Shown here one piece after another: positions 476 to 63,068 of a DNA stretch of 64,000 nucleotides (position 1 is its first letter; each line of letters opens with the position of its first letter). The notes under the pieces are model-generated. The model did no database searches, was not told where the DNA came from, and saw nothing but the letters and a program-made list of their open reading frames with translations. Position numbers and translations under genes: made by a program. This stretch comes from a virus (Duplodnaviria > Caudoviricetes). Location of the stretch: IMG/VR virus record IMGVR_UViG_2684623050_000001, positions 53,698-117,697 of that record; one strand, given 5' to 3'.

Positions 476-568
476 CGTTCCGGGTCCGTTCCCTACCCGT
501 TAACCGGGCCTTAACGTAAGCATGGGCGAATCCGCTTGTCAGCGACTTCGCGAAACGGAAATCCGCCC

Positions 569-1249
569 ATGCTCACCATAGCTTGCCTCTCCCAGAAGGG
601 TGGCGTCGGTAAAAGCACCCTCACCCGACTGATCGCCCGCAGCTACGCGGCTGCCGGCTGGCGCGTGAAGATCGCCGACCTCAACACCAAGCAGAAGACG
701 TCCGTGGACTGGGCCTCGCTCCGGATGGAAGCGAACCTGGAGCCGTCCGTCTCGGCCGAGCCCTTCGCCAACGTGCGCCAGGCGCTCCTGCAGTCGATGA
801 ACTACGACCTCATGGTGTTCGACGGCCGCCCCGATTCCGAGACCGCGGGCCGTGACGTCGCCAAGGAGGCAGACCTCATCATCGTGCCGACCTCGGTCGC
901 GCTCGACGACCTCGCCCCGCAGGTGAAGTTCGCCCACGAGCTGATCTCCAACGGCATCGAGCGCAAGCGCATCCTCTTCGTCATCAACCAGACGGGCGAG
1001 AGCCAGGTCGAGGTCAACGACGCGCGCGAGTATGTCCGGGTCGCCGGCTACGGCGTCTGCGAGACCCACATCTCGGCCAAGCCCAGCTACCGGACCGCGC
1101 AGAACACCGGCCGCGCCCTGAACGAGACCACCTTCCCCTCGCTCAATGAGCGCGCCGACGCCCTGATGCAGGAGGTCGTGGATAAGGTCGCCGAGCTCGA
1201 TCCCCGCGCCTCCCAGCGTGCCTCCCTGATCGCCAAGGTGCCCGCATGA
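569..1249 (+). CDS. parA: ParA partition ATPase (short, type Ib-like)
   Basis: Deviant Walker A SQKGGVGKST, IADL, FDGRP; ATG at 569. Confidence 0.92.
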   Translation: MLTIACLSQKGGVGKSTLTRLIARSYAAAGWRVKIADLNTKQKTSVDWASLRMEANLEPSVSAEPFANVRQALLQSMNYDLMVFDGRPDSETAGRDVAKEADLIIVPTSVALDDLAPQVKFAHELISNGIERKRILFVINQTGESQVEVNDAREYVRVAGYGVCETHISAKPSYRTAQNTGRALNETTFPSLNERADALMQEVVDKVAELDPRASQRASLIAKVPA

Positions 1250-1674
1250 GCCGTCTGAAGATCGCCCCGCCTCCCATGCCGGCCGAGCCGGCGCCCGAAG
1301 TCGTTCCAGAGCCCGTAGAGGCGCCCTCCCCTGCTCCGGCTCCCAAGGTCGACGCGCGTCCCTCGCGGCTGTCTGCGGCCCCGCCCAAGCTCGCGCAGGC
1401 CCCGATCAACCTGCACCTGCCCAGCGAAGGCTTCGTCGACCTCAATTTCAAGGTCGAGCCCGAGCTGCGCCAGCGCTTCAAGCTCGAAGCCGTCCGCCGC
1501 GGCATGTCGAACAAGGAGCTGCTCGAAGCCTGCTTCACCGTCTACCTGGAGACGTTCCCCTCGGACGAGCCCATGCCGACCATCAAGCGTCCGACAGCAG
1601 AGACGCTCGCCCGGCGTCGGGAGAAGCGGCTGGAGCGCGAGAAGCGTCTCGAACGCATCCGGTCGCGCCAATGA
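1246..1674 (+). CDS. Ribbon-helix-helix partition adaptor (ParG-like) with Pro-rich flexible N-terminus
   Basis: LNFKVEPELRQRFKLEAVRRGMSNKELL RHH pattern; ATGA overlap with parA. Confidence 0.7.
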   Translation: MSRLKIAPPPMPAEPAPEVVPEPVEAPSPAPAPKVDARPSRLSAAPPKLAQAPINLHLPSEGFVDLNFKVEPELRQRFKLEAVRRGMSNKELLEACFTVYLETFPSDEPMPTIKRPTAETLARRREKRLEREKRLERIRSRQ

Positions 1675-1883
1675 GCGCCGGCCCCGAGGAGATCGACCTG
1701 CTGGAGCTGGCCCGCGAGCTCATGCGGCAGTTCACGCCCGAGGAGAGAACCGAAGTGGTCCGCGAAGCGGACCGTCTCGGGATCTCCGAGGAATACGTCG
1801 TCCTCGAAGCCATCCTGCAGCTCGATCTGTCCGAGTTCGCGCACGGGGAATTGGGGAGTGGGGAGCCTGGGACCCAAGGATGA
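1671..1883 (+). CDS. Hypothetical protein
   Basis: ATGA overlap with upstream gene, typical codon usage. Confidence 0.6.
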   Translation: MSAGPEEIDLLELARELMRQFTPEERTEVVREADRLGISEEYVVLEAILQLDLSEFAHGELGSGEPGTQG

Positions 1884-2017
1884 TCGCCGGGGATCTGGTG
1901 CCTCTCCCAAGGACCGGCCGGAGATGCTGGTGGACACCCGAGGCATAGCCCAGAGCGCGTGAGTGTGGCTCTAGGACATCACTGTGTCTCAAAAACTACA
2001 GTGACAAACGTGCAACG

Positions 2018-2054
2018 TGATGCGCGCGTGCATCAGTGTGTCACGCGCGCATCA
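2018..2054 (-). terminator. Hairpin after the GG/CC-free operon
   Basis: 13-bp inverted repeat TGATGCGCGCGTG / CACGCGCGCATCA, 11-nt loop. Confidence 0.55.
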
Positions 2055-2059
2055 GTGTG

Positions 2060-2440
2060 TCATGCTTGCTCGTCAAGCACTAATTCGACGCAATGCATAA
2101 GAAAACGCTTGAAGTCTGCGAAGTTGTCGAAGCGAAAACATTGCTTCTGCAATGTAATGTTTTCGTCAAAGTTAAGATCAGAGCATGCATAATGCGCATC
2201 GTTAAGCGTGCGCACAACGACGTGATGAAAGCTGTCGTGCTTGCGTTCGATGCGCACAGCGTCGATGTAGTGAAACTGCATCACAAGCATTTCAACGCGC
2301 TCGCTGTAAGCGTCAAAATCGTCGCGCGCGCTCATGTCAGTGCGATAGTCTGCGAAGCTGTCGAACGCGCTCATCAGCGCTTGCTCTTGCGCGAGCTTGC
2401 GTGTCTCAGCGTTCATCTCAGCGATATCTTGAAGCGTCAT
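2060..2440 (-). CDS. Hypothetical protein, 126 aa, no Gly/Pro/Trp
   Basis: ATG at 2440 preceded by ACACAGAGAG leader, promoter and operator. Confidence 0.75.
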   Translation of the reverse strand: MTLQDIAEMNAETRKLAQEQALMSAFDSFADYRTDMSARDDFDAYSERVEMLVMQFHYIDAVRIERKHDSFHHVVVRTLNDAHYACSDLNFDENITLQKQCFRFDNFADFKRFLMHCVELVLDEQA

Positions 2441-2500
2441 GACGAAAACTCTCTGTGTTGCTGACAAATGCTTGTCGCATGCGTTCGCATTGCAAGTCAA

Positions 2501-2692
2501 TCACTGCTGACTGACTTTTTCGAGCTTTTTGCGCGCGCGATGCTTCGCGACACGCAAGCGCGCATCTTCGTCTCTGTGCGACGCGACAAGCGCTAGATAA
2601 GCTTCGCGTGCGCGTTGCTTCTCTGTGCGAAGCTCGCTCAGACGCGCTTCGATTGACGCGATTTCAGCGCGCAGAGCGTCAGACTTGCACAT
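2501..2692 (-). CDS. Small coiled-coil protein, no Gly/Pro/Trp
   Basis: Heptad pattern LRAEIASIEARLSELR. Confidence 0.6.
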   Translation of the reverse strand: MCKSDALRAEIASIEARLSELRTEKQRAREAYLALVASHRDEDARLRVAKHRARKKLEKVSQQ

Positions 2693-2752
2693 AGCGTTTG
2701 CTTCTCATGAGAGCGTCGCACAGCGCGTTCGCGCGCTCTGAGCTAGTGAGAG

Positions 2753-2781
2753 CGCTAGAGACGCGCGAAGCGTCTCTAGCG
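2753..2781 (-). terminator. GG/CC-free hairpin
   Basis: 12-bp stem CGCTAGAGACGC / GCGTCTCTAGCG, loop TTCGC on the minus strand. Confidence 0.55.
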
Positions 2782-2794
2782 TGCGTCTGAGCGC

Positions 2795-3409
2795 TTAGAG
2801 CGCGACGTTCAGCGCTTTCGCGAGACGCTTCGTCGTCGTCGCGCTCAGATTGAGCTTGTAAGCGACTTTGTTCATGTCGTCGCGCGTCTCTGTCAGCACG
2901 TCGAACATTTGCAGCGCATTGATGCTAGAGCTTGACTGAGTGTCAGCAGTGCTTGCAGCGATGCTGCGAGCGTAGCGCGAAATCAGTTGCTCTTTCGTCG
3001 CGTCGCACTTGAGCGCGTCGCACAGCGACGCTTGAGCGTCAGCGTGCGTCATGCTCTTGTCAGCTTTCGTCAGATTGAGAGCAGTCAAGAAAACGTGCTT
3101 GCTGTAGACGTTCAGCGCTTCAGCTTTGACAGCAGCGCGCGCGACGTTGAACACTTTCTCAGCGCTGTAGACGTTGAAACGCTTGTTGCGACGCTCTTGA
3201 CGATTGATGAAGTCAGCAGCGACGTTCGCAGTGTGCATGACTTCGCAAACGACGTCTGACGCGAAGTCAGCGCGAAGCGACTTGAACGTCTTGAAAATGT
3301 TTTCGTTAGCGTTGTTCTCGCGCTCATAAGCTTCGCGAGCGTCGAAAGCAGAAGTGAGAGCGAGCTTGTAAGCAGTGACAGCTTCGTTCTTCGCGACGTT
3401 GTTGCTCAT
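2795..3409 (-). CDS. 204-aa Gly/Pro/Trp-free paralog of ORF 4666-5574 (putative winged-helix DNA-binding protein)
   Basis: FINRQERRNKRFNVYSAEKV vs FVNRTQHDGSRYNVYAIDKV; ASTADTQSSSSINAL vs ASTAPTQASSTMQAL. Confidence 0.8.
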   Translation of the reverse strand: MSNNVAKNEAVTAYKLALTSAFDAREAYERENNANENIFKTFKSLRADFASDVVCEVMHTANVAADFINRQERRNKRFNVYSAEKVFNVARAAVKAEALNVYSKHVFLTALNLTKADKSMTHADAQASLCDALKCDATKEQLISRYARSIAASTADTQSSSSINALQMFDVLTETRDDMNKVAYKLNLSATTTKRLAKALNVAL

Positions 3410-3444
3410 GTCTGTGTCTCTCTGTGTTTGTGTGCTGACAAGAG

Positions 3445-3488
3445 ACAATTTAGTCAGTTCGCATTGAGAGTCAATCAGCACTGAGTGA
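3445..3488 (-). promoter_or_regulatory. Sigma70-like promoter whose -35 overlaps an operator
   Basis: Minus strand TTGACT-N16-TAAATT; operator TCAATCA-GCAC-TGAGTGA at 3471-3488; similar arrangement at 2470-2514. Confidence 0.6.
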
Positions 3489-3684
3489 CTTTTTGCAGAA
3501 AATAGGAATTTTCTTCTGAGACGCATTCTTGCTCTTGACAGTAGCAAGCGAGCAACACGAGCGTGTGCGCAATCTACATGCGCACAATTCAATGATGCAC
3601 GATGTATTGCGCACGATTTAAGAGCGCTTGATCGAGTGATGCGCGAGCGATCGAGCCCGCGCCGCGCCATGGGTCTCTACCGAA

Positions 3685-3720
3685 GCCCGCCCCAAGCCGT
3701 TCCTAATTTCCGGAACCGGA
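3685..3720. repeat. 36-bp dispersed repeat, copy 1 of 3 (others 4557-4592, 5955-5990)
   Basis: GCCCGCCCCwrGCCGTTCCTAAwTyCcrGAwCmGGA. Confidence 0.85.
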
Positions 3721-3969
3721 TGGGTCAACGGCGTCCGCCCATGGCAGCCCGATCCCTCCCATGGCACTCCATGGGGCACCAATGCGAAAATATCGTCTCA
3801 GGAGGCCCGTGGAAGCCCGCGGCAGGCTCCGGAGCTGTCCACGGTGCTCCGGACCCTCCCATGGGGCTCCTGCGCGCCCCTGTGCGATCCCATGGGCTGA
3901 TCGAGCGCAACGATATGGGGCGCCCCTCGCGAGACGCCCCTCTGTGTGTCGCGCGTGCTGCGCTACCCC

Positions 3970-4290
3970 TTACGCGAACGCTTCCTCGCGCAGCTCCAGT
4001 GCTTCGGCGCGCTCGCGGGCCTTGCGGTCGATCATGCGCTTGCGCTCGGTGCGGCGTCGCGCGATCTCACGCTCCGCATCCTCGACGTAGAAGCTGTCGA
4101 GCTCTCCCTCGACGAACTCACGGTAGGGCACGCCCAGGGCCCGAGCGACACGCATTTCCATTTTCTCCTCTTGGTCGATGATCTTGCTGAGATGCTGCTT
4201 CTGGACGTTCGGAGCAGCGGCGAGGGCGGCATTCGTGAACTCGATCGCGTCGGCGAGGGCGTTGACGACAGAAGAAACGAGATGGCGCAT
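3970..4290 (-). CDS. Hypothetical early protein
   Basis: ATG at 4290; shares a 27-bp upstream sequence with ORF 4666-5574. Confidence 0.7.
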   Translation of the reverse strand: MRHLVSSVVNALADAIEFTNAALAAAPNVQKQHLSKIIDQEEKMEMRVARALGVPYREFVEGELDSFYVEDAEREIARRRTERKRMIDRKARERAEALELREEAFA

Positions 4291-4307
4291 TGGTTGATCT
4301 CTTGTCT

Positions 4308-4334
4308 TGTGAAGCGCTGCGCTTCGTTGCTGAC
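4308..4334. repeat. 27-bp leader direct repeat, identical to 5591-5617
   Basis: TGTGAAGCGCTGCGCTTCGTTGCTGAC upstream of two consecutive genes; contains the GAAGCGC-T-GCGCTTC palindrome. Confidence 0.85.
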
Positions 4335-4665
4335 AAGAATGACTATGCACTACGAAATGTATGGATAGAACTGGTGCGTTGTGGTGCAGTATGGGGCGAC
4401 ATGGATATTAGGATACGTCTCCGGCACGGGACGCGGCCCCACCCCACGGCCTCCCATGGGACCCCGCGGCAGGCCGTGGATCACCGGACCGTGCCCATGG
4501 GAAGCCGAGGAAAGCCGGACCGTGGAGGACCGTGGCCTGCCATGGACCATACCAGGGCCCGCCCCTAGCCGTTCCTAATTCCCAGAACCGGAAGCGCGGG
4601 CTCCCATGGGGCGGACCGAGGCAAGAGAAAGGGGCGCACAGGGCGCCCCAGTCTCGTCTCGGGTC

Positions 4666-5574
4666 TTAGGCGGCCTTCTGGATCTTCTCCTTGAGCGCCG
4701 CGGTGATCGGGGCGTCGGTCAGGGTGAAGGTGGGGTTGCGGCTCGATCCCTCGCGCTTGACAACCCCGAGGGTCTCCAGGGCCTGCATGGTCGAGGACGC
4801 TTGGGTCGGCGCGGTGCTCGCGGAGACCGTGTGGCGCGTCAGGTGCTTCCGGACCGCGATCTCGACCCCATACTTGTCCGAGGCGCACGCCTTGGCGAGT
4901 TCGAGGCTGAAGGCGTGCCCCGCGGCTTGCAGCGCGAAGATCGACTTGAGGCAGGCGCGGTTGATGGCGTTCTTGACCTCACCCGCGTCGCTGCCGAGGG
5001 CGCGCAGGATGTCGACCACTTTGTCGATGGCGTAGACGTTGTAGCGCGACCCGTCGTGCTGCGTGCGGTTCACGAAGGCGGTGTCGACAGCGGCTGCGAT
5101 CAGCACGCGGGCCGGAGCCTTGGAGACGCCCATGCCCTCCCGCGCCTTCTTCAGGGTGCGCTGGATGTTGTGGCCGTCGCCTTTCTTCTGGAGCTCGAAC
5201 TGGGCGCGCTCGTCGATCGCGGCGTTGATGGTGCGCTGGGCCATCTCGATGTCCGTGTCGTCGAGCAGGTCCATCAGCTCCCGGAAGCTCGGGCCGGTCG
5301 GGGTAGCGGGCGCTTGGAGCTCGTCGCGCATCTCCTCGGCAGCGATCTCCTGAGCCACGAGATCGAGGACCGCATCGGACGCCTCGGCCTCTTGGACCGG
5401 CAGGTCTGCGAAGGTCTCTTCGAGGCTCAGTTGGATCGCGGCGAGGCGCTCGCTCTCGGCAGCGGCGTCGCGGGTGGCGATCATGGCGTCGTGCTGGAGT
5501 TCTCCGAAGTTGACGTTGATCTTCGGGGCGTCGTTCTTGAAGGACTTGCGGGTGCGAGCGGTCTTAGCGGTCAT
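4666..5574 (-). CDS. Hypothetical protein, acidic N-terminus, C-terminal putative winged helix
   Basis: 302-aa ORF with strong codon bias; paralogous to 2795-3409. Confidence 0.85.
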   Translation of the reverse strand: MTAKTARTRKSFKNDAPKINVNFGELQHDAMIATRDAAAESERLAAIQLSLEETFADLPVQEAEASDAVLDLVAQEIAAEEMRDELQAPATPTGPSFRELMDLLDDTDIEMAQRTINAAIDERAQFELQKKGDGHNIQRTLKKAREGMGVSKAPARVLIAAAVDTAFVNRTQHDGSRYNVYAIDKVVDILRALGSDAGEVKNAINRACLKSIFALQAAGHAFSLELAKACASDKYGVEIAVRKHLTRHTVSASTAPTQASSTMQALETLGVVKREGSSRNPTFTLTDAPITAALKEKIQKAA

Positions 5575-5824
5575 CTGTCTGTCTTTCGTCTGTGAAGCGC
5601 TGCGCTTCGTTGCTGACGAAGACTAGAAACGATATTTAGGCTAGGGATGCTACTGGCACGTTATGGAAGCTCTAAGCTTCTGGATACACGCTCGCGTGCT
5701 CTATATACGTGAGAGCCGATCTCCGGGCGCGCCATGGGAGGCCGAGGAGCCCCTTGGGTCGCCGGTGCCTGCCATGAAATCCCATGGGAGCCCGTGGGTC
5801 GCCGGACGCTTGGAAATCCAAGAG

Positions 5825-5904
5825 CTCCAAGTCCGCGTTCCTGTAAATAGGTATATACAGGTAGATAGTAGGTAATAGGTTTTTACAGGAACGCGGACTT
5901 GGAG
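5825..5904. repeat. Perfect 23-bp inverted repeat around a 34-bp AT-rich spacer
   Basis: CTCCAAGTCCGCGTTCCTGTAAA (5825-47) / TTTACAGGAACGCGGACTTGGAG (5882-5904). Confidence 0.9.
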
Positions 5905-6614
5905 ATTTCCATGGGATCTCCGGCGACCCGAGGCGTTCCGTGGATCGTTCCAGGGCCCGCCCCTGGCCGTTCCTAAATTCCGGATCAGGAAGACAGACCG
6001 CTGCCGGTGCCCCTCAAGCGGTCCGGACGAGACCTCGGGGCACCGGTCAGCAGCGTCAGCAACAAGCAGGCACAGAGAGAGCCCAGAGGCAGCTGCGCGT
6101 CCGGCGCGCTGCGCTTGCAGTGATAGAGATACAGCAGCGATCGTGGCGAGGCTACCGGATGCGTGTGGGCGTCCAAGGTGTTCGGGGATCGGTGGACGTA
6201 GAGGGAAACGGGCGCCGCGCGGCCGTGTCTATCTGATCCCTCTCCCAGCTATTCCCCACTCCCCGGCTCTCTATGGGCTCACACACGCTGGCGTCTCTCT
6301 AGGGGCTGTCTCTCCCCTCCCCTACGCGCTCCCCACAGACGCTCTCTCGCTCGTGTCTCTCTGATGCTGATGCGCTCTATTCGTTGGATGCGTCGCTCGC
6401 TTCGCTCAGAGCATCACACAGCGCGTTTCGTTCGTTCTGTGTCTCTCTGACGCTCTCACATGCTTCCCGACGCTCTATGAGCTTCTCATGCGATTTGCCC
6501 CTAAGACGCTCTCGATCGGGTCCATGTCTCTCTAGAGCTGATTGATGGTTTTGGGCTGCGAAATCGGGCTGCTCGGGCTCATGTCCCCTGATGAGACATT
6601 TTCCGCAAAATCGC

Positions 6615-6762
6615 GTTCGCATTGGATTTTGATGGGACATCCATAGGACATCCAGGTGACATCCATGGGACATCGGTGAGACATTCGCGGCCCTCGCCCG
6701 ATAGTTCGCATTGAGGTTCGAGGGGACATGCAGGTGACGTCCATGGGACATCCATGAGACAG
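6615..6762. repeat. 11-bp-period tandem repeats (iteron/centromere-like)
   Basis: GACAT at 6636, 6647, 6658, 6669, 6680 and GACRT/GACAG at 6725, 6736, 6747, 6758; each block starts 21 bp after the start of a GTTCGCATTG. Confidence 0.85.
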
Positions 6763-6864
6763 GCCTGGCCTCTCCGGACCGTGGCCTGTGTGAGCCTGGA
6801 CCAGGCTTCCATGGACCGGGTGCTCTACGAAGAAGGGGCGCCCGTGGTGCGCCCCTGTGTGGTC

Positions 6865-7218
6865 CTAGTCCTCGCTCTCCTTCCGGAGCTGCTCACGGTC
6901 GTCGAGATCATCCACGATGTCCCAGACCTTCCCCTCCCAGTCGTCGTTGTCGTCGGGGAACTCGTTCTCGCCGAGCCTGCGGAACTCTTCGACATGCGCG
7001 TTCACGGGATAGTGGAGCTTCCGGAAGGCTCTCTTGAGCTCCAGCAGCTCCTCCTCGGTGGGTGGCGTGTCTCGATCGAAGTCGATGTCCCTGGTGTCGC
7101 CTCCCGAGCCCGAGCCGCCCCGTTCGTAGCCGAAGCGCGCCGCGATCTCCTCGATGTCGCCGTCGCTGCCCTCGCTGCGCTCGTAGGTGACTTCGAGGCT
7201 GTAGTTGATGCTGGTCAT
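6865..7218 (-). CDS. Acidic hypothetical protein
   Basis: ORF with upstream promoter motif and downstream hairpin at 6834-6856. Confidence 0.75.
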   Translation of the reverse strand: MTSINYSLEVTYERSEGSDGDIEEIAARFGYERGGSGSGGDTRDIDFDRDTPPTEEELLELKRAFRKLHYPVNAHVEEFRRLGENEFPDDNDDWEGKVWDIVDDLDDREQLRKESED

Positions 7219-9362: not shown

Positions 9363-9685
9363 CGGGATGCCTCGGCGATGAACTCGCAGATCGCCCGTGC
9401 GGGATTCGGCAGCTCGGGCTGCATCAGAGCCTCGCGGGCCTGCTCCATCGCCGCATCGAACTCGGCGATTACATCCTCGGGGATGATGTCGTCGAACGCC
9501 TCGGCAACATCGAGCAGCGTCTGGAGCGTGCGCAGGTCGATGGTCACGGTGCCCGGCATGAGGCGCACGTAGTCGCTGCCGTCGAGACGCTGGATCGTCT
9601 GAGCGATCTGACCGCCCGGAGCATCAGTCTGCTCGATGATGCGCTCGCCCGGCAGCATGCGGGTGATGGTGTCTTGGTTCTGCAT
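9359..9685 (-). CDS. Hypothetical protein
   Basis: Start MQNQDT downstream of the promoter motif at 9721-9740. Confidence 0.65.
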   Translation of the reverse strand: MQNQDTITRMLPGERIIEQTDAPGGQIAQTIQRLDGSDYVRLMPGTVTIDLRTLQTLLDVAEAFDDIIPEDVIAEFDAAMEQAREALMQPELPNPARAICEFIAEASR

Positions 9686-9756
9686 GTCTCTGCTCGCTGT
9701 GTGCTCTGCGATGATTTGACTATCGCAGAGCAAATTCGGCATGTCGGCTGGAACGA

Positions 9757-10347
9757 CTAGGCGGCGTTCGTGCGGTAGTCTTTGACGACTTCCACGACGA
9801 CGCTGGATTCTGGGGCGCTCGCGGCGATCGTGACGGTCGTCAGGCCCCAGGCGGTGCTGTCCATCGACATCCAGCTGTTCTGCTCGGCAGTCTTGTTGGG
9901 GCTGAACTCGCTGTGGACATGCACGGCGTTGTTCGGCTCGGCGAGGAATGCAGCGGCGATACGCTCGGCTTCCTCGGAGATCTGGGCGCGCAGGGTCGGC
10001 TCGGCGCAGGCGGCGTCTCGCATCTGCTCCTCGCAGTCGAAGACGATCTTCATGGACGCACGGAACTGCTCTACGGCTTCGGCAGCGGTCTCGAACACGA
10101 GGACTGCGGTGATGTCCGGGCCGCAATCGGTGTAGGCGAACAGGGTCTTGCCCTGGCTCGCGGCGATCAGCGCGTGCGAGTGCTTGTCGGTCTCGTATTC
10201 GTAGTGGGTGTCCGGCAGGTCGGCATCGTCTGGCGCTGTGTCGCAGGTCAGGACCGGGCCGTTGTTGCTCTCGATCAGCGTCACGACGACGTGATCGTAG
10301 TCGATGGTCGAGGCGTCGCTGTGGCTGGTGATGTGTTGGATGGTCAT
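9757..10347 (-). CDS. Hypothetical protein
   Basis: 196-aa ORF, GG-free leader. Confidence 0.7.
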   Translation of the reverse strand: MTIQHITSHSDASTIDYDHVVVTLIESNNGPVLTCDTAPDDADLPDTHYEYETDKHSHALIAASQGKTLFAYTDCGPDITAVLVFETAAEAVEQFRASMKIVFDCEEQMRDAACAEPTLRAQISEEAERIAAAFLAEPNNAVHVHSEFSPNKTAEQNSWMSMDSTAWGLTTVTIAASAPESSVVVEVVKDYRTNAA

Positions 10348-10418
10348 CGCGTGCTCTCGCTAAGTCGTTGCTGACATTGCGTTTATAGCAATGTCAGCGC
10401 TGTCTGTGCGCGGGGTCT

Positions 10419-14961: not shown

Positions 14962-15995
14962 CAGGCCGCGAGCTGATCCGCGCGGCCGACCACACCGTTC
15001 TCGGACGGCGGGTTGATGCGCACGTCGTAGCGGACGCCGGCCTCGACCAGCGTGCCGGTCTCCGCAGGGGTCAGATCGAAGAACACGTTCTTCTCCACGA
15101 TCCGGGTGTGGAGCTTCACGAGCAGCGCATCGACCGCGGCCAGCCTGTCGGCGTAGCGATCGGCGTCGGCGCTGTCGTCGTTCGCGACGGTCTTGAGAGC
15201 GGCGAGCTCCTGCTCGACCATCGCCTTCTCCTCGCGCAGCTCGCCGATGACCTCGGCCTGCTGCTTGACCGTCTCGTCGAGCTCCTCGATCGTCGCCGTC
15301 TGGCTCTCGATCGCCAGGTTGCGGGACTGAAGCACGTCCATCAGGTGCCCGTGCTTCATCTGGCGATCTTCGATCTCGCCTTCGAGCAGAGCGGCGTGCT
15401 CCTGGAGCCCCTCGACTTCGCCGGTGAGCTTCTCGATCACGCGGGCGATGATGCCCTTCTCGTTCTCCTCGCCGCCGTAGGTGCCGACGAAGCCCGACGC
15501 GATGATCGCCTCGAAGATGGTCTCGATGACCTCGGCCGGGTCGTAGCCGTTCTCCGGCAGCTGCGGGTAGATCTTGCGGAGCGCGAGGTCGATCTCGGCG
15601 AAGGTCTCCTCGTCGAGCGCGAGCTCCGTGTTCTTCTCGCGGATCACCTGGCCGAGGTGGTTGATGGTCTCGGCCCCCTTGGCGAGCGTGCCGGCCGCGG
15701 CGTTCATGAGGAGCGCGCTGGTCTGCTCCTGCTCCAGCTTCTTCAGGAGCTCGTTGCGGTAGTGGTCGATGACGTCGTTCAGCTCGCGGATCGTGACGTC
15801 GCGGTCGGCGATCATCTGGAACTGGTCGGACTTGAGCAGGCTGCCCAGGTGCGAGGCGACGTTGACGGTGCGCTCGTTGGTCTCGGTCTCGGCAGCGCGG
15901 GCGCGACGGAAGGCGCGGATCGAGAAGCCACTCAGAAGGCCGGACAGGCCGAGCGAGGCAGCGGCGACGAGATTGGTGGTGCTGAGGATGTCCAT
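14961..15995 (-). CDS. Membrane-anchored coiled-coil protein
   Basis: Start MDILSTT; N-terminal hydrophobic helix, long heptad region. Confidence 0.75.
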   Translation of the reverse strand: MDILSTTNLVAAASLGLSGLLSGFSIRAFRRARAAETETNERTVNVASHLGSLLKSDQFQMIADRDVTIRELNDVIDHYRNELLKKLEQEQTSALLMNAAAGTLAKGAETINHLGQVIREKNTELALDEETFAEIDLALRKIYPQLPENGYDPAEVIETIFEAIIASGFVGTYGGEENEKGIIARVIEKLTGEVEGLQEHAALLEGEIEDRQMKHGHLMDVLQSRNLAIESQTATIEELDETVKQQAEVIGELREEKAMVEQELAALKTVANDDSADADRYADRLAAVDALLVKLHTRIVEKNVFFDLTPAETGTLVEAGVRYDVRINPPSENGVVGRADQLAA

Positions 15996-16059
15996 GTCGA
16001 TCTTTCTCTGTGTGCGCTCACTCAGCGCTGACTGACTATAGCGCTCGCGTGTCGGCGTT

Positions 16060-16962
16060 TCAGAAGAGAAAACGCACGAGCGCGAGGCAGATGACGACGG
16101 CGATGAGCGGGACGGCCGCAACACCCACCTTCGGCGCACCGGGGACCGCGATCGGTGCGGCCCCGGATTGGAGATCGTCCTCCCAGCTCTCGCCGAGCTG
16201 AAGGTGCTGCGTGTCGGTCGCGGCAACCTGGATGAGGACGGGAAGCTTGGAGATCGCGACCCCGAAGCCCCAGAACTGGCCGGGGTTGAGGGTGCGCAGG
16301 CCGAGTGCCTCGTCGCTTTTCAGCGGGAAGCCCAGGTTGTTCGCCGCGGCGTTGCGGTCGAGCACCTGCCCCACCCGGCCGATCAGCCAGGTGTTGCACT
16401 CGGACACGGCGCTCTTGGAGATCTTGGCGAGGCGCTGGGTCGCGAGGATACCCGTGAAGCCCCGCTTGCGCCCCTGGCTCATCAGGGTGTGGATCGAGGC
16501 GCGCGAGGCCGCCCCGCCGTCCTGGGGCGCGTAGCGGTGCGCCTCGTCGAGCACGATGAACACGGGCTGCCACAGCGCGCGCGGCGCGGCCATCAGGGCG
16601 TCGATCAGGCCGGCGATGATGCGGCGCTGGATCTCCAGATGCTGCGCGTCCTCGAACTGCAGGACGACGGACATCTGCCCCTTGAGGATGTCGTGGGCGA
16701 GGTTGGCGACGTTCTTGGGCGTCACCTTCATCTTCGAGCGCGGCCCGCCCACGATCACGTAGGGGTGAGCCTGGCGCAGGGTGTGGAACTCACCCTCGGG
16801 GTCGATGACGATGTGGAGCGCGGCGCCCCAGGTCTGCTCCAGGACCTTCCGGACGGTGTAGGTCTTGCCGCTGCCGGTGTTGCCGACGATCGCCAGGTGG
16901 GTGCCGATCAGCTTGCCCGCGTCGATGGCTATGTCGTTGCCGTCGTGCGTTGTCCCGATCAT
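16060..16962 (-). CDS. HerA/FtsK-family P-loop ATPase (DUF87-like) with C-terminal hydrophobic anchor
   Basis: HLAIVGNTGSGKT, IDPEGEF, LDEAHRYAP, GRKRG, ATQR. Confidence 0.85.
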   Translation of the reverse strand: MIGTTHDGNDIAIDAGKLIGTHLAIVGNTGSGKTYTVRKVLEQTWGAALHIVIDPEGEFHTLRQAHPYVIVGGPRSKMKVTPKNVANLAHDILKGQMSVVLQFEDAQHLEIQRRIIAGLIDALMAAPRALWQPVFIVLDEAHRYAPQDGGAASRASIHTLMSQGRKRGFTGILATQRLAKISKSAVSECNTWLIGRVGQVLDRNAAANNLGFPLKSDEALGLRTLNPGQFWGFGVAISKLPVLIQVAATDTQHLQLGESWEDDLQSGAAPIAVPGAPKVGVAAVPLIAVVICLALVRFLF

Positions 16963-17045
16963 CGCTAAGTCGCTCTCGCGCTGTTTCGCTGTTGAGCTAC
17001 ACAATGCGCGAGAGCAGTCGGCTGCGCTACTGGCGCAGCGTGGCG

Positions 17046-21209: not shown

Positions 21210-21813
21210 GTCGCCCTCTCGCTCGGTAGCGATTTCGCTACCCTCACAAAAGGACGGGCGCCCAAGCCGTTAAGCCTGGGCGCCCGCGAAAGGTATGAGA
21301 GACAGGTGGTGTCCCGATTTCGACTCAGCGCCCTCGGGACCACGGACGGAGCGTCTGGTGCTGCCCTTCCCTCCCCTTGACGTGGGCGATCTCCGGCTGG
21401 GTTAAGGTCGTCAGCATCGACCCGCTGTTCAGCGATTCTTGGCGCAATCTCTGCCGGCCCCTCACGGGGATTCACGTTGGCGATCGCGTTGCCTGGCCCT
21501 GTGCTCGGGCCCTGTGCCTCCGTTCGAGGCGGGCTGTCGATTTCGTGCGGCAGGCTCACCGAGGCTGCAATGTCCTCGTCTCTCGCCTTGTGGGGCCGCT
21601 ATCGTAACTGGGTGATGCCGTCAGGCGCTGGTCAGAACTTCATGACGATCTCCTTTGCGTCTCGTGTTGTCGCGCTACACGTCACTGCCGAAGCTCAGTG
21701 TGTCTCTTGCGCGCTCGCTGTCGCTGTTGACTTAGACAAGATGCACTGACGAACGAGGGTAAGCTACTCGCTCATCAATGGTATCTCGCGTTCGCTAAAC
21801 CGCCCTTCCGCTG

Positions 21814-22724: not shown

Positions 22725-22983
22725 GGCCTTCTCCTTGTTGCTCTCCAGTGCGCTCAGTAAGTCAGCGCTGACTGATTATAGCAGTGCGCGCTTGGCGTTT
22801 TCAAAGCGATCGACACAGACCGGACTCAGAGGCGGCGTGGAATGCGCGACGTTGCTCTGTGAGACGCGCGAACGCTTTCGAGCATCGCTGATGCGTCGCG
22901 AGCGAACCGACGCTGTGCGAGCTTCTGAGAGCGTCGCAGATCGCGTCCTAGCGAGAGAGCGAAGTCGCTGTTTCGCGAAACGC

Positions 22984-25901: not shown

Positions 25902-26043
25902 TGTATGTCTTCCCTCTGTGTGAGCGCTGTGTGCTGCGCTGTGCTGTTGACTATTACGTTATAGCTTCAGCAACTCGGCGTGTCGGCTGGAACACAATGG
26001 AAGACCAGCGGCTTTCGTGCTTCGCTAAACCGCTGGATCGCGA

Positions 26044-28162: not shown

Positions 28163-29686
28163 TTAGGCAGCCTTCAGGTGCTTCGAGAGGGCCTTGCGGC
28201 ACATCTTGAGCTCCTTCTCGATCTCCCGCAGCGACTTGCCGGCCTTGTGGAGCTCGGTCGCCTTGAGGAGCTTCTCGGCGTAGGTGAGCACCGTGCTGAC
28301 CTCGGCCGGGGCAGGGGCCTTCTGGGCGAACGCCGGCTTGGCGACCTTCTTCGGCTTCGACTTGCGCTTGGGCGCGTTGACGATCTCCTTCACCAGGCTG
28401 TTGGTGATGGCGAAGTCGCCGAACTTCTTGGTGCGCAGCACCAGGCGCCCGGTCTTGCCGTCGTCACGGGTGGCCGCGACCTCGTAGTCGCCGTCGTCCA
28501 GCTTCTTCGAGCCCCTGATCCGCACCCAGTTGCCGGGGATCGCACGATCCCAGGCCGTCTGCGCCTTGGGCTTCTCGGGCACCACCGGCGCCGGGGCAGG
28601 GGAGGGCGCAGCCTCGGTGCCCTTCAGCTCCTCGCCGAGCTTGGCCTTGACCGCCTTGGCGTCGATCTTGGGCCGCTCCTCGATCTTGCGAACCGGGTTG
28701 AGCGCGGCCGGCAGACCAGGAGCGGCGCCGGTCTGAGTGACGGTGAGCGCGGTCTCCTTGTCCTTCACGAAGGAGCCGCCCACGACGACCTCTTCGAGCA
28801 CACCGACGTGATTGCCGGCGACGACGTTGGCGACGATGCCCCGCGCCTCCTTGGCAGTCAGCGCTGACTTATACTCCGAGACAGCCTTGTGAGCGGAGCC
28901 GTCGAGCAGCGCGACCAGGTGGTAGGCCGAGCAGCGCATCTTGCCGCCGTTGTAGTTCTCCGGGATCGCGATGACGTCGGCGGGATCGACCTTCACCAAG
29001 AAGACGGAATCGCCATACTGGCCGTAGCTCGCCGAGCAGACGTGCAGGCCGGAGCCGCACTGCGCACGGTCGACGCGGATCTTGTCGAGCGGCATCGAGA
29101 CGCGCGAGCCGAGACGCTGCATAACCCGGCCGGTGTGATGGTCGGCGAAGGTGTCGGGGCCCTTCTTGTCGAGGAACTTGTAGAGGACGATGCAGCCGTC
29201 GTCGGCGATCGGCAGATCCATCTTCTTCACGAAGGCGAGGAGCTCGTCCGCGGTGTGCTTGTGGTCGAGACGAGCGAAGCGCTCCAGGAACCGGGTGAGG
29301 CTGGTGCCGCCGTTCATCGCGGTGTCCTCGATCGCCTTCTCCAGCGCCGAAGCGTCCTCGATCTTGACGCCGGCAGCGGTCGAGATCGCGAGCTTGGAGA
29401 CGCCGTTCTCGACCTTCTCCTCGACCGTGACCGCGCCGCCCGTGACCTCGGCGATGCGCTTGGCGAGGCTGAACTGGTCGAGGTCGATCTCGATGCAGGC
29501 GCTCAGATCACTGCCGGACGCAGCAGCTTCGGCCGTCGCCTTGGCGAGCGGCACGAGCACCGCGTCCAGAATCGCCGCAGTGCGCCAGCTCTCCTGGCCG
29601 AACACCTGGCTCTTGCCGTCGGACGTGAAGAGAGTCACGCCGTTCTTGGAGACGATCGCTCCGGAAACGCAGATCTTGTTGCTCAC
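28163..29686 (-). CDS. rIIB: rIIB-like protein
   Basis: PIADDGCIVLYK, DHHTG, CGSGLHVCS, VKVDPADVIAIP; follows rIIA. Confidence 0.8.
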   Translation of the reverse strand: MSNKICVSGAIVSKNGVTLFTSDGKSQVFGQESWRTAAILDAVLVPLAKATAEAAASGSDLSACIEIDLDQFSLAKRIAEVTGGAVTVEEKVENGVSKLAISTAAGVKIEDASALEKAIEDTAMNGGTSLTRFLERFARLDHKHTADELLAFVKKMDLPIADDGCIVLYKFLDKKGPDTFADHHTGRVMQRLGSRVSMPLDKIRVDRAQCGSGLHVCSASYGQYGDSVFLVKVDPADVIAIPENYNGGKMRCSAYHLVALLDGSAHKAVSEYKSALTAKEARGIVANVVAGNHVGVLEEVVVGGSFVKDKETALTVTQTGAAPGLPAALNPVRKIEERPKIDAKAVKAKLGEELKGTEAAPSPAPAPVVPEKPKAQTAWDRAIPGNWVRIRGSKKLDDGDYEVAATRDDGKTGRLVLRTKKFGDFAITNSLVKEIVNAPKRKSKPKKVAKPAFAQKAPAPAEVSTVLTYAEKLLKATELHKAGKSLREIEKELKMCRKALSKHLKAA

Positions 29687-32060
29687 TTGCTGTTCTCCTT
29701 GCGGGAAATGTAACGCTGACCCAACTGTTCAGCGAAATCGAGGAAGTCTTCGCGCTGCGTCTGGGTCATCATGAGGAACTTCGACTTGTCGAAGACTTCC
29801 AGCAATCCCAGGTGCTCGACGCGGGTCTGAAGAGGCTCCCGTCCTTGAAGCCGGTGGCCTCAAGCTCGCAGACGATGTTGCGGTATTCCTCAACGAGCTT
29901 GAGGATCTCGGTGGACTCGGACTTGTCGAGATGGTCCGAGGAAGCCCAGCGCTGATGCAGGACGGTCTTCGCCATCAGCCACCAGGTCCAGGCGTCGTCG
30001 CGATCCGCGTCGTCGGTGTAGGGCTCACGCACAGCGGCGTGAGCGAAGCGACGCGAATGGGCGATCATCATGCCGGCGAGCTCCGAACCCATCTTGCTCG
30101 GGTTCGAGGCGAGCAGCGCCAGCTTCACGTAGAGGGCCTCGTAGGGCTTGTTCAGCGCGAGCCGGGCGCGGAGCTTCTCCAGGACCAGCGTTTCCAGACG
30201 CGGGATGTTCTGGCCCTGCAAAAAGTCCATGTCGGACCGCTTCCAAATCATTGCTACCTCGCCGATGTGCTTCTTGATGAGATCCAATACCAAATGCGCG
30301 TTGGGCGGCTGTCGGGTCAGGTAAAACGCGGGCTTGTAGTCGACAGATGTTGCCTTCACGCCGAAGTAGGCGGCCGGCATGAAGATGCGGGGAGAGACGT
30401 GGCACTCGCGGGTCGCGTAGAGCGTGATATCGTCCTTCGAGTAGGTCTCGCGGTCGCGATACTGGTCCCACGAAAGCTTGATGAAGCGAGGCGGGCAGGG
30501 CGGTCCGAACTGCTCCTTCGGCTTCTCGGCCTCGGGAATCACCTTCACAGCCGGCTTGAGGTCGATGACCTCGATGCCGAGCTTCTTCCCCTGCTCCAGA
30601 ATGACCTTGCGCTGGCTCTCCTTGAGCTTGCCGATCAGGATGTAGCCGCGCTCGGCCTTCCTCGCCTCGATCTTGTTCTGGGCGAGGAAGATGCGGGGCT
30701 TCCGCCAGCGGCCGTGAAAGCTGTAGGTGCGGTCCCGGTCGGGCTTGTTGGCCGCAATGGGCTTCTCGCGCTGCGTCACCTTGATGTGCAGGAGCTTCAG
30801 CACGTCGGCCTTGGTCGCGAGCCGCGCCACCGAGCGCTTGGCGTATTCGGTGGCGTCCCGCTCGAACGAGAAGCCCCGGCCGTGCTTGTGGCTCGCGATC
30901 TGCCGCAGGCCCCTCCGGCGATGCTTCATCGTGCCGAGGAAGATCTTCGCCTGCTCGCGCTCGGAGAAGCCGCGATTCGACATCACGTAGAGGGCGTAGC
31001 CGCGCGCGATCGCCTCGATGCCGGTGAGGAGCTTCTCGTTCTCGTTCTGCGCCTCGATATAGACCTTCTCGGCCGGCAGCTTGTTGCGCTTGGCGTCCTT
31101 GTAGGCCTCCTTCAGGAAGCCCTTCAGGTAGTGGTTCACCCGACCCTGGCAGCGGCCGACGACGCCTGCCAGCACCTTCTTGAGCGTGCCGACCGTCTGA
31201 TCGTTGTAGGACAACGCCTCGCGCGAGGGTGTGACCGAGATCGAGGACGGCGGGGCGTAGATGATGAAGGAGCGGTTGTTGAAGGTCATATCGCGCAGCC
31301 GCGAGATGTAGGCTTGAAGCTCCTCGTGCGTGTCCAGCGGGTAGAGAACGTTGGCGTAGAGGACCTGGACCTTCGCGATGTTGCGGCGCGACAGGTAGCC
31401 GAGGCCGAAGCCGTTGCGCTTGAGCTCCGTGTAGTCGGGCGCGCTGAGACGCTCGCCGTTGAGGTCGACGACCATGCCGCCTTCCTGAACGACCTGCTTG
31501 AGCGCGCTCTCGATCTTGTCGCGCATGCCGACGGCCAGCGGCACCGAGACCGTCAGGCCGGTCCCATCGGTGCGCGACTTCATCATGACCTTGGCGCCGG
31601 GCGTGCCGTTCGTGGTCGGGTCGCCGACGTGCATCGCGTAGAGGGTCGAGATGCCCTGGTGACGCGAGATCACGGTGAAGTGGTCGGAGATCGCGAACGG
31701 GGCCTTGGAGCCGAGGCCGAAGCCGCCCGTCTGGTTGTCCTGGCCCTCCTTCGTCGAGGCGAAGAGGGTGCAGTAGATGTCGGCGATGCGGTCGTCGGCG
31801 ATGCCGGGGCCCTGGTCCTCGACGATCAGCTCGTCGTCCGAGAGCGTCACCTTGACCGGCTCGCTCTCCTTGCCGACCATCGCGTGCGCGTCGATGGCGT
31901 TGCAGACGATCTCTCGGACCGCGGCACGCTCCTTGTCGCGGTAGAGGCTGTCGGACATGATCTTGAAGGCCGCAGCAGACGCCTTCACCTGGAAGGCGTG
32001 CGTCTTGCCGCCTCCGATGATGACGTGGCTGTCCGGCTCAGTGACGTGGGTCACTTGCAT
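29683..32060 (-). CDS. rIIA: rIIA-like protein (GHKL ATPase N-terminus) with apparent frameshift near 29840
   Basis: SLYRDKERAAVREIVCNAIDAH, DQGPGI, GGFGLGSKAPF; in-frame stop at 29769, alternative frame ends at 29683 overlapping the rIIB start. Confidence 0.8.
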
Positions 32061-32098
32061 GGGCGCGTCTCTCGCTCTCTGTGTGTGCGCTGCGCGTC

Positions 32099-32162
32099 TC
32101 AGTCAGCGCTGACTGACTTGTTATAGCGACAAAATCGCGGCGTTTCAGTCAGCGCTGAGTGA
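32099..32162 (-). promoter_or_regulatory. Type example: GCCG-N10-GCTATA promoter bracketed by two TCAGTCA-N4-TGACTGA operators
   Basis: Operators at 32099 and 32145; TATAGC at 32122, CGGC at 32138; family of 29 operators and ~16 promoters listed under findings. Confidence 0.85.
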
Positions 32163-50944: not shown

Positions 50945-51198
50945 ACTTTCTGCTTGCTAGGTGGGCCGAAGCCCTTGGTGCTGCTTGGATTGCTTGCTTT
51001 CGCTAAGTCGCTGTTTAGCGTTCGCTCTTGCTATATAGCGACTTCGCGTCGGCGTTTTCGTGTCTTGCGACAGGAAACATCAGCGCTTGCTGATCCGGTG
51101 ATACCCGCGCCATCCGCCGAAGCGGGGACGGTTGCGGGTGAGGTAGCCCCAGGTGCCGAACCAGCAGCACCCGAGGATGAGAGCGATGACGTCGGAGC

Positions 51199-58642: not shown

Positions 58643-58799
58643 GCGTGTGTGGCTCCGTCTGTGTGCTGTGTGGGCGTGTGTGCGTCGTTGCGCTGTGCGC
58701 TGTTTGTAGAGTCAGTTATCACTGACTAAGCGCGGGAAAGCAAGTCACCACTGACTGACCTTCTCGCGCATGCGATCGTTTCGGATCGGGTGTGTCACC

Positions 58800-62759: not shown

Positions 62760-63068
62760 GTTATCTACTCCTAGACTGCTATGTAGATTGTTGATGTCAT
62801 GCGTTGGCTCATCTCTCTACATTCTTGTTAGTTTCGTCTTCGTTGAGACAGTGAGCATATAGCAGTTAGTTCTCGGGTCTTCGTATGCGTGCGACGCGCT
62901 TCCAGATGATGCCAGAGAATGCTCGCGCCGAATGATAAGTCAATGGTGACTTGTTATAAAAAAAATTCCCTTCATCCGGAAACGAGTGCGTGGGCGCCAC
63001 AGCACGATTCGGATTTGAGCCATAAACACAACGACTTGCTAACCCGACTGTGTTCGCATTGAACCCCA

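What the first reader, a model, noticed from the sequence alone, without database searches (positions are those of the whole stretch)
2795..5574. Natural recoding experiment: a Gly/Pro-free paralog next to its normal copy
Seen: 2795-3409 aligns with the C-terminal part of 4666-5574, with G/P swapped out (HDGSRYNVY->RRNKRFNVY; STAPTQ->STADTQ; LETLGV->LQMFDV). This shows the GG/CC-free DNA is real evolved coding sequence. Inference: the same function is needed both before and after the GG/CC constraint is lifted, making this protein the best candidate for the factor that lifts it.
Basis: partly seen in the sequence, partly recalled or inferred. Interest (0 to 1): 0.85.

Follow-up and report, generated by a model that had tools for sequence, protein, structure and literature searches.

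The report
Glycine/proline-free phage gene beside normal paralog
A phage that lives as a plasmid keeps two old copies of one DNA-binding protein, and one copy, together with its promoter, is written without a single GG or CC (so without glycine, proline or tryptophan); related phages share this, which points to an unknown process that reads GG/CC.

Summary
2795-3409(-) (P0001, 204 aa) is homologous to residues 106-302 of 4666-5574(-) (P0002): BLASTP E 5e-13, profile-profile E 5e-34, and the same helical plus winged-helix fold in both models.

P0001 lies in a 1.68-kb stretch (1975-3656) with 1 GG/CC where 233 are expected. It is the only such stretch in the 5.6-Mb genome.

The window is a 117.7-kb circular siphovirus-like phage-plasmid of the RHEph10/pLM21S1/V1VFA-S type.

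The recoding is ancient and actively kept:
- 25 of 43 short-family proteins have no Gly, Pro or Trp.
- The GG/CC-free island sits on this gene in most relatives, cultured Rhizobium phages included.
- Synonymous sites are near saturation, yet GG/CC is not regained.
- One Methylobacterium clade has relaxed secondarily.

The avoidance is specific to the GG:CC step. Other palindromes are not avoided.

Both copies share a nearly identical recognition helix, so they probably bind the same DNA.

The function and the cause of the constraint remain unknown. No Pfam, PHROG, NCBIfam, PADLOC or PDB relative was found. That this protein "lifts" the constraint is untested. What is supported is that it is the one gene the constraint is built around. 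I found no description of this in print.

The parts
1975..3656 (.). GG/CC-free island, 52.6% GC, with one CC at 3505
   Evidence: 1 GG/CC against 233 expected. It is the only run longer than 130 nt in the genome. CGCG, GCGC, ACGT and other palindromes occur at expectation.
2795..3409 (-). P0001, the short paralog: 204 aa, no Gly/Pro/Trp, pI 9.1. N-terminal helical part plus C-terminal winged helix.
3447..3474 (-). Sigma-70-like promoter TTGACT-16-TAAATT in front of P0001. A GG/CC-free leader with a CAGAGAG purine tract follows, in place of a GGAG-type ribosome binding site.
   Evidence: This was the only 9-of-12 consensus match in 1700-7000; 0.9 are expected by chance, so it is a pattern match only.
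4666..5574 (-). P0002, the long paralog: 302 aa, ordinary composition (13 G, 9 P). Residues 106-302 (nt 4669-5259) form the domain shared with P0001. Residues 1-105 are an acidic extension (pI 4.4).
2060..2440 (-). Accessory island gene, 126 aa, acidic, no G/P/W. It has its own copy of the TTGACTnnCAATGCGAAC...TTGTCAGCA...CAGAGAG upstream element.
   Evidence: Relatives are one near-identical protein and one homolog inside the L008 island.
2501..2692 (-). Accessory island ORF, 63 aa, basic, no G/P/W. Coding status is unproven.
   Evidence: no relative in any fetched locus.
3970..4290 (-). 106-aa ORF between the paralogs. Its likely start is the ATG at 4290, behind the shared TTGTCAGCAAC leader.
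   Evidence: not conserved in relatives.
3658..3895 (.). Upstream control region of the island: a 65-nt repeat copy (3658-3722) and a CCATGG array
4454..4609 (.). CCATGG array and 65-nt repeat copy (4530-4594), upstream of the 106-aa ORF
5591..5992 (.). Upstream region of P0002: a 27-nt leader element identical to 4308-4334, a CCATGG array (5732-5914), a 30-nt inverted repeat (5825-5904) and a 65-nt repeat copy (5928-5992)
536..1674 (+). parA (536-1249) and a ribbon-helix-helix partner gene (1246-1674), convergent on the island. This neighbourhood is conserved in all relatives.

Best explanation
P0001 and P0002 are ancient paralogs of an uncharacterised, phage-specific DNA-binding protein. Each has a helical N-terminal part and a basic winged-helix C-terminal part. 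They are encoded in the regulatory and maintenance region of a RHEph10/pLM21S1-type siphoviral phage-plasmid, next to parA and among arrays of CCATGG.

Both keep almost the same recognition helix (T-x-T-Q-[AS]-S-S-[ST]-[IM]-[NQ]-A-L). They therefore most likely read the same DNA, possibly the CCATGG arrays that flank their own genes.

The short copy is its own small transcription unit behind a sigma-70-type promoter. That unit, from promoter to 3' flank, is kept free of the GG:CC step by continuing selection on the nucleotide sequence. As a by-product, the protein uses 17 amino acids.

The inferred logic is a motif-free failsafe copy. Some process in this phage family's life cycle acts on GG/CC, and a single site is enough to spoil a gene. 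The phage needs this DNA-binding function while that process is active, so one copy is made immune. The ordinary copy, which has an extra acidic N-terminal region, serves when the process is not limiting.

Shown: paralogy, shared fold, the nucleotide-level constraint, and its age and maintenance.
Inferred: DNA binding, a shared target, and the failsafe logic.
Not known: the nature of the GG/CC-reading process, and whether P0001 controls it.
For: Paralogy and fold:
- establish homology.
- AF2 gives pLDDT 93 for P0001 and 88 for P0002, with the same order of helices and strands in the shared domain.
- Residues 87-203 match winged-helix DNA binders (MarR, BpsR, histone H1, Fur, ArsR) at Z 7-8.2.
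- The shared domains are basic, pI 9.1 and 9.5.
- The most conserved block of both families lies on the predicted recognition helix.

Nucleotide-level selection:
- P0001 has 0 junction GG/CC against 35 expected, and uses GCT 22 times and GCC 0 times.
- With the protein sequence held fixed and local codon usage applied, 52-87 GG/CC are expected in the CDS. 6 of 13 loci have none.
- pS is 0.49-0.69 between lineages that both have none.

Age:
- 25 of 43 short-family proteins have 0 G/P/W, and the maximum is 6.
- The long (43) and short (41) groups are split by one branch with SH-aLRT 100 (quick tree).
- Of 13 viral contigs, 10 have an island on this gene, 1 has a partial one, 1 has none, and 1 has an island 2.5 kb from the match.
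- The cultured phages RHEph10, V1VFA-S and RHph_N1_15 also have the island or the gene.

Specificity:
- Palindromes that lack GG/CC are not avoided.

The gene is the core of the island:
- In most relatives the island is this CDS plus about 40-70 nt upstream and 40-300 nt downstream.
Against: - No experiment or read data show when, or whether, either copy is expressed (one search is weak).
- No family, defence or anti-defence model matches. Function therefore rests on a generic fold match at a middling Z.
- No GG/CC-specific nuclease, modification enzyme or RNase was found among 67 ORFs scanned.
- Sixteen further GG/CC-free stretches of 60-90 nt sit at -10-plus-leader cassettes of early and middle operons. 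A one-hit destructive process does not easily explain these. They suggest the property may also serve promoter or leader function.
- The leak of GG/CC is strand-asymmetric. Sense-strand GG is 1 against 81 expected, and sense-strand CC is 18 against 173 expected, in four leaky lineages. A purely duplex-DNA reader does not predict this.
- Many internal phage genes use GGAG-type ribosome binding sites.
Confidence: 0.45

Rival explanations
1. RNA-level constraint. The mRNA, and perhaps an antisense transcript, must lack GG so as to escape an RNA-cleaving or RNA-binding factor, in the way ACA-less mRNAs escape MazF. CC avoidance would be secondary. Untranslated leaders are exposed, which is why they are purged in many operons. 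The whole P0001 message is purged because it must persist.
For: - Strand asymmetry of the leak: L007+L008+L012+L013 have sense GG 1 (81 expected) against sense CC 18 (173 expected).
- In the relaxed L001/L010, CC has returned to O/E 0.9-0.96 but GG only to 0.53-0.57.
- The L008 island has 4 GG and 20 CC on the sense strand.
- The islands start near the promoter and cover the transcript.
- Leaders of 16 other operons are GG/CC-free.
Against: - In the window the non-transcribed 180 nt upstream of the -35 hexamer are also free.
- CC is still avoided about 10-fold or more.
- Internal genes of phage operons carry GGAG-type sites, which a GG-cutting RNase would hit.
- No RNase candidate was found.
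- Part of the asymmetry could reflect slower regain of GG in a protein without Gly.
Confidence: 0.2
2. DNA-level protection during host takeover with stepwise DNA entry, on the T5 model. A phage nuclease destroys GG/CC-bearing DNA early in infection, and the island survives because it has no sites.
For: - Relatives have fixed ends with 3.6-3.9 kb direct terminal repeats and genomes of about 120 kb (PMC12509600, whole text read).
- RHEph10 is annotated with a deoxyribonucleoside 5'-monophosphate phosphatase, SbcCD-like genes and a flap endonuclease.
- The avoidance covers both strands and is total.
Against: - If the B1VFA record starts at its terminal repeat, the island lies about 42 kb from the end. 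The record start is not stated in the paper.
- No homolog of the phosphatase was found on this element.
- The element persists as a plasmid, which fits poorly with obligatory destruction of host DNA.
- Leader cassettes of 70 nt would protect nothing.
- The leak is strand-asymmetric.
Confidence: 0.12
3. Escape from CRISPR-Cas systems with a CC/GG PAM (type I-F, or NGG Cas9), to protect an early counter-defence gene.
For: - GG/CC is the PAM of these systems (recalled).
- Genome-wide PAM depletion in phages is reported (PMC12174588, PMC4246573; listing and start of abstract seen only).
Against: - The host genome is 100% complete and has no Cas1.
- Protecting 1-2 kb of a 118-kb genome does not prevent its destruction.
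- The trait is kept across phages of several host genera.
- P0001 is basic and has a winged helix.
- No PADLOC hit. PADLOC models defence systems, so this is not a test for anti-CRISPR families.
Confidence: 0.04
4. A mutational by-product. A context-specific deaminase or similar activity acting on this heavily transcribed stretch erodes CC/GG, without selection for their absence.
For: - The island has a lower GC content (52.6% against 65%).
- GCC is replaced mainly by GCT.
Against: - Conserved Pro columns are replaced mostly by Ala, Asp, Asn and Glu rather than the C-to-T products Ser, Leu and Phe.
- CG and GC are the enriched dinucleotides, not the deamination products.
- Island borders coincide with one gene in many lineages.
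- Purifying selection acts on the protein.
- The relaxed clade regains GG/CC.
Confidence: 0.05
5. General avoidance of restriction sites.
For: Many restriction sites of high-GC bacteria contain GG or CC (recalled).
Against: - CGCG occurs 43 times (40 expected), GCGC 49 times (45 expected), and ACGT 13 times (9 expected).
- All 6-mer palindromes without GG/CC occur 52 times against 56 expected.
Confidence: 0.03

Closest known systems
Motif-less genes that escape a sequence-specific nuclease: ACA-less mRNAs and MazF; site-poor early regions of T7 and T5 (recalled, not tested here)
   Same: A gene is kept free of a short sequence so that it still works when that sequence is being attacked.
   Different: Here the motif is a dinucleotide step on both strands and its removal is total over 0.7-2 kb. 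This costs the protein three amino acids. The state is conserved over a whole phage family. The attacking activity is unknown.
Winged-helix transcription regulators (MarR/ArsR/Fur-like) and linker-histone globular domains
   Same: The C-terminal 115 residues superpose at Z 7-8.2 and rmsd 1.9-3.2 A over 72-84 residues. The domain is basic.
   Different: No sequence-family membership: the best Pfam match is HTH_IclR at E 0.15, below its cut-off. An extra 85-residue helical N-terminal part has no clear match.
RHEph10 / pLM21S1 / B1VFA / V1VFA-S group of rhizobial siphophages with plasmid genes
   Same: Same genome size and same synteny around the pair: long paralog, short paralog, parA, helicase, parB. 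repC, rIIA/B, a DnaE-type polymerase and a sigma factor are also present.
   Different: The texts of the papers on these phages that I read do not mention the GG/CC-free gene or the paralog pair (PMC12509600 whole text; PMC5537653 and PMC7969092 passages only).
Genome-wide PAM depletion in phages
   Same: Depletion of GG/CC-type motifs under pressure from a reader of that motif.
   Different: Published cases are mild and genome-wide (listing and abstracts only). This case is absolute and confined to one gene plus promoter-leader cassettes, and the host has no Cas1.

Membership tests
P0001/P0002 paralog family (unnamed) | Significant sequence and profile similarity over the whole shared domain | tested here: met
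   BLASTP E 5e-13. hhalign probability 99.9, E 5e-34, 194 columns. 485 cluster representatives at E<=1e-3 with the joint profile.
P0001/P0002 paralog family (unnamed) | Same predicted fold | tested here: met
   Same order of helices and strands in both AF2 models. No coordinate superposition could be run.
Winged-helix DNA-binding fold | Three-helix core with a recognition helix followed by a beta-hairpin wing | tested here: met
   H101-115, H122-129, H152-168, E172-176, E182-186. VIA-align Z 7-8.2 to many wHTH chains over residues 87-203. Z values this size are common, so this shows the fold only, not the function.
Pfam HTH families (IclR, MarR and others) | Score above the curated cut-off | tested here: not met
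   HTH_IclR scores 12.3 bits against a cut-off of 22, E 0.15. Nothing in PHROGs, NCBIfam or PADLOC.
ORC/Cdc6 or plasmid Rep-type initiator (lid plus winged helix) | Structural match over both the helical and the winged-helix parts | tested here: inconclusive
   Foldseek rows for ORC subunits and archaeal Orc1 have E 0.05-0.4 and TM 0.24-0.32. Orc2 WH has Z 7.0. A separate RepC is present on the element.
DNA-mimic anti-restriction proteins (Ocr/ArdA type) | Strongly acidic surface | tested here: not met
   P0001 has pI 9.1. That acidity defines this family is recalled.
T5-type first-step-transfer (pre-early) gene | Location in the terminal repeat that enters first | not testable with these tools
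   Termini of this element are unknown. Relatives have 3.6-3.9 kb repeats, but their coordinates are not given (PMC12509600).

The most novel reading that the evidence does not exclude
This phage family carries or meets a so far undescribed activity that reads the bare GG:CC step, and one site is enough to knock out a gene. The activity could be a nuclease, a base modification or an RNA-directed activity. The phages keep a 17-amino-acid version of their key winged-helix regulator as a bootstrap gene that is immune to it. That protein in turn governs the activity, or shields the rest of the genome from it.
Probability: 0.25. Interest if true: 0.9.

Novelty: new variant of a known kind. Interest (0 to 1): 0.8.

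Why it matters
- It is a clean natural case of selection on DNA or RNA sequence overriding the amino-acid alphabet. A folded, conserved protein has been kept for a long time without Gly, Pro or Trp, next to an ordinary paralog that serves as a control.
- It flags an unknown GG/CC-dependent process in a widespread group of alphaproteobacterial phage-plasmids.
- The question is directly testable, because cultured relatives exist (RHEph10, B1VFA, V1VFA-S).
- The pair is also useful for protein design, as a natural 17-letter solution to a known fold.

Tried and rejected
No family or structural relative:
- Pfam, PHROGs, NCBIfam and PADLOC gave nothing for P0001, P0002 or the three small neighbouring ORFs.
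- PDB sequence profiles gave only helical-bias hits to BRIL fusions for the long family, and nothing for the short family.
- Foldseek against PDB gave no row at E<=1e-3.
- BFVD gave two uncharacterised phage proteins.
- The ESM Atlas gave only hypothetical clusters.
- Rfam gave one chance hit far below threshold.

Searches of public records:
- blastn against phages found nothing.
- tblastn of P0001 against phages found nothing, although a local tblastn without the low-complexity filter finds the V1VFA-S gene.

Read data:
- No run held half or more of the stretch's sampled words (best shares 0.44 and 0.32).
- Laying contigs of four runs gave only a related 2250-nt contig in one RNA library. That does not prove transcription, and parts without cover say nothing.

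Hypotheses rejected or weakened:
- General restriction avoidance was rejected.
- The CRISPR PAM idea was weakened.
- The deaminase idea was weakened.
- General Shine-Dalgarno avoidance was rejected. 22 of 46 late starts and 43 of 83 early starts have GGAG-like sites upstream, although the start codons were crudely called.

Search for the factor that imposes the constraint:
- A search for a phage DNA-modification enzyme found 21 Pfam families among 67 ORFs, and none is a DNA modifier. Only the 25 commonest families are listed by that mode, and 62 of the 129 crude ORFs were not scanned in that mode.
- The comparative screen gave rIIA and a 116-aa ORF as present here and in RHEph10 but absent from the relaxed M. 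oryzae plasmid. One lineage is no correlation.
- The two methyltransferase-domain genes specific to the M. oryzae plasmid are generic class-I SAM enzymes, not recognisable DNA methylases.

Unresolved:
- The position of the terminal repeat could not be fixed.
- The careful tree search did not finish. The quick tree is reported.
- The binomial figure for the GG/CC asymmetry (about 0.007) is my own arithmetic on the numbers, and it ignores relatedness.
- The literature claim rests on searches. None of the listed titles or abstracts describes a GG/CC-free gene. Supplements were not opened.
Full report
**What the window is.** Places 1-62939 of the window are contig C2:54759-117697 of a 5.6-Mb, four-contig genome. 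The remaining 1061 bases are the start of the same contig, so C2 is a 117,697-bp circle.

C2 encodes a large terminase, a portal, a 1618-aa tape measure and a 2222-aa J-like tail protein. It also encodes a DnaE-type polymerase, ribonucleotide reductase, rIIA/rIIB, SbcC, CobS/CobT-like proteins, a helicase and ParA. Further genes are RepC, RecA, ligase, a gp32-like protein, dUTPase, ThyX and ParB_N.

It is a siphovirus-like phage-plasmid. Its relatives are:
- a 116.8-kb Methylobacterium oryzae plasmid;
- pLM21S1 of Sinorhizobium (PMC5537653, passages);
- the cultured Rhizobium phages RHEph10, RHph_N1_15, RHph_X66, B1VFA and V1VFA-S.

For B1VFA and V1VFA-S, fixed ends with 3.6-3.9 kb terminal repeats and parA/parB/repC are reported (PMC12509600, whole text).

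**The observation.** 2795-3409(-) encodes P0001 (204 aa) and 4666-5574(-) encodes P0002 (302 aa).
- Each protein has its own family: 43 proteins for the short one and 237 for the long one.
- Profile-profile comparison of the two alignments gives probability 99.9 and E 5e-34 over 194 columns, with short 8-204 matching long 106-302.
- AF2 models are confident (pLDDT 93 and 88). They show the same succession of helices and strands in the shared domain.
- The first 105 residues of P0002 are an acidic, less confident extension.

**The composition.** From 1975 to 3656 there is one GG/CC, at 3505, where 233 are expected. No other run longer than 130 nt exists in the genome.
- GC content stays at 52.6% through an excess of CG and GC.
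- Palindromes without GG/CC are at expectation: CGCG 43 against 40, GCGC 49 against 45, and all 6-mers 52 against 56.
- So the avoidance is specific to the GG:CC step and is not restriction-site avoidance in general.
- In P0001 no codon holds GG/CC and no codon junction makes one (35 expected). GCC, ACC, TCC, CGG and AGG are unused.

**Age and maintenance.**
- 25 of the 43 short-family proteins have no Gly, Pro or Trp, and the worst has 6.
- All 120 listed long-family proteins have many. In the aligned domain, 41 long members carry 12-19.
- A quick maximum-likelihood tree splits 43 long from 41 short rows by one branch with SH-aLRT 100. The careful search did not finish.
- Of 13 viral contigs found with the short family, 10 have a GG/CC-poor island on the matched gene. 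L019 has fragments and L010 has none. In L020 the island lies 2.5 kb from a match that looks like the long copy.
- RHEph10 and V1VFA-S have islands of 1.06 and 1.3 kb at the same map position.
- V1VFAS_039 (200 aa) and EVB78_014 of RHph_N1_15 (190 aa) have no G, P or W.
- With the protein held fixed and codons drawn from local usage, 52-87 GG/CC are expected per CDS. 6 of 13 loci have none.
- Synonymous differences between such lineages are near saturation (pS 0.49-0.69), with dN/dS 0.23-0.35.
- The clade around the M. oryzae plasmid (L001, L010; P0132-P0139) is nested within the short family and has relaxed. CC is back to O/E 0.9-0.96 and GG to 0.53-0.57, while the protein still has only 2 Gly and 1 Pro.

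**What belongs to the island.** In most relatives it is this CDS, 40-70 nt upstream and 40-300 nt downstream. That span is about the promoter, the transcript and the 3' flank.

In the window the island also holds a 126-aa acidic gene and a 63-aa ORF, both without G/P/W. The 126-aa gene recurs only in the L008 island and in one near-identical protein.

P0001 is preceded by TTGACT-16-TAAATT and a leader with CAGAGAG instead of a GGAG-type site.

The orientation of the short copy relative to the long copy differs between lineages, tandem or convergent. The two always lie within about 3 kb of each other and next to parA.

**What the protein looks like.**
- Residues 87-203 superpose on many winged-helix DNA binders at Z 7-8.2. 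Scores of that size are common, so only the fold is claimed.
- The N-terminal helical part has no clear match.
- The shared domains are basic.
- The strongest conservation in both families falls on the predicted recognition helix: STADTQSSSSINALQ in the short copy and STAPTQASSTMQALE in the long copy. The same DNA target is therefore the simplest reading.
- CCATGG arrays lie in the intergenic regions in front of P0001, the 106-aa ORF and P0002. 20 of the 29 CCATGGG copies on C2 lie between 3667 and 6741. They recur at the same places in most relatives, though not in V1VFA-S. They are candidate binding sites, untested.

**What imposes the constraint.** This is not solved.
- No DNA modifier, nuclease or RNase with such specificity was recognised.
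- The host has no Cas1.
- Two further observations bear on it.
  - First, GG/CC-free runs longer than 60 nt are 13 times denser on the phage than on the chromosome (15.3 against 1.16 per 100 kb). 19 of the 20 runs longer than 55 nt lie in the early and replication half. They are -10-plus-leader cassettes (GCTATAnT ... CACAGAGAG ... ATG). Relatives have them too, including the relaxed plasmid.
  - Second, where GG/CC leaks back into the short-copy gene, it is CC on the sense strand far more often than GG (L008).
- Both points lean towards a process tied to transcription or to the RNA rather than to bare duplex DNA.
- However, the non-transcribed upstream 180 nt in the window are also free, and internal genes use GGAG sites.
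- I therefore keep a generic failsafe-copy explanation as the best one, and list the RNA-level and DNA-level versions as rivals.

**Comparison and verdict.** The principle that a gene avoids the motif of an attacker is known. Its form here is not something I found in print: a dinucleotide step removed totally, one conserved gene, three amino acids lost, and an ordinary paralog alongside (searches; listings and abstracts, plus the texts named above).

Noticed in passing
Window 4292-4363, 5569-5639, 9676-9738, 10342-10412, 15992-16054, 16955-17020, 21688-21757, 22839-22907, 25913-25977, 32062-32139, 50987-51051, 58673-58734, 62806-62875 and others: GG/CC-free stretches of 60-90 nt sit at -10-like GCTATAnT boxes plus leaders (CAGCG..., CACAGAGAG, then ATG) of early and middle operons. 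Runs longer than 60 nt occur at 15.3 per 100 kb on the phage against 1.16 per 100 kb on the chromosome. Relatives have them too.
   Followed up: partly
L007, L008, L012, L013, L001, L010 (short-paralog CDS): Where the purge leaks, sense-strand CC returns much more readily than sense-strand GG. In four leaky lineages GG is 1 against 81 expected and CC is 18 against 173 expected.
   Followed up: partly
Window 6604-6780: Two blocks of 11-bp-periodic repeats (GGGACATCCAT-like), each next to a CAATGCGAAC box. The same box lies in the promoters of P0001 and the 126-aa gene. Five copies occur on C2, all on the minus strand.
   Followed up: no
Window 5825-5904: A 30-nt inverted repeat (90% complementary) around a 20-nt AT-rich loop, upstream of P0002.
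   Followed up: no
Window 6386-6466: An isolated 80-nt GG/CC-free piece, 90% identical over 20 nt to 2710-2729 inside the island. It may be a remnant of island sequence.
   Followed up: no
Window 29769-32060 and 28163-29686: rIIA is present here and in RHEph10, but no match for rIIA or rIIB was found on the M. oryzae plasmid, whose short paralog has relaxed. RHEph10 also has an annotated rIIB, although tblastn with this element's rIIB did not find it. This is a single lineage, so no inference is drawn.
   Followed up: partly
Window 56856-57443 (-): A homolog of the phage sigma factor annotated in the M. oryzae plasmid and in RHEph10. My crude ORF caller missed it, and Pfam gave no hit at E 1e-3.
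   Followed up: partly
L023 15251-15487 (V1VFA-S): tRNA-Met, tRNA-Asn and a pseudo-tRNA(CCA) lie directly beside the GG/CC-free island of V1VFA-S.
   Followed up: no
Run X5 (oyster metatranscriptome), laid on window 1900-5700: A 2250-nt contig of a relative spans about 1892-3658, which is almost exactly the island. Contigs for the rest of the locus are present at similar depth. DNA carry-over or repeat-caused contig breaks cannot be excluded.
   Followed up: no
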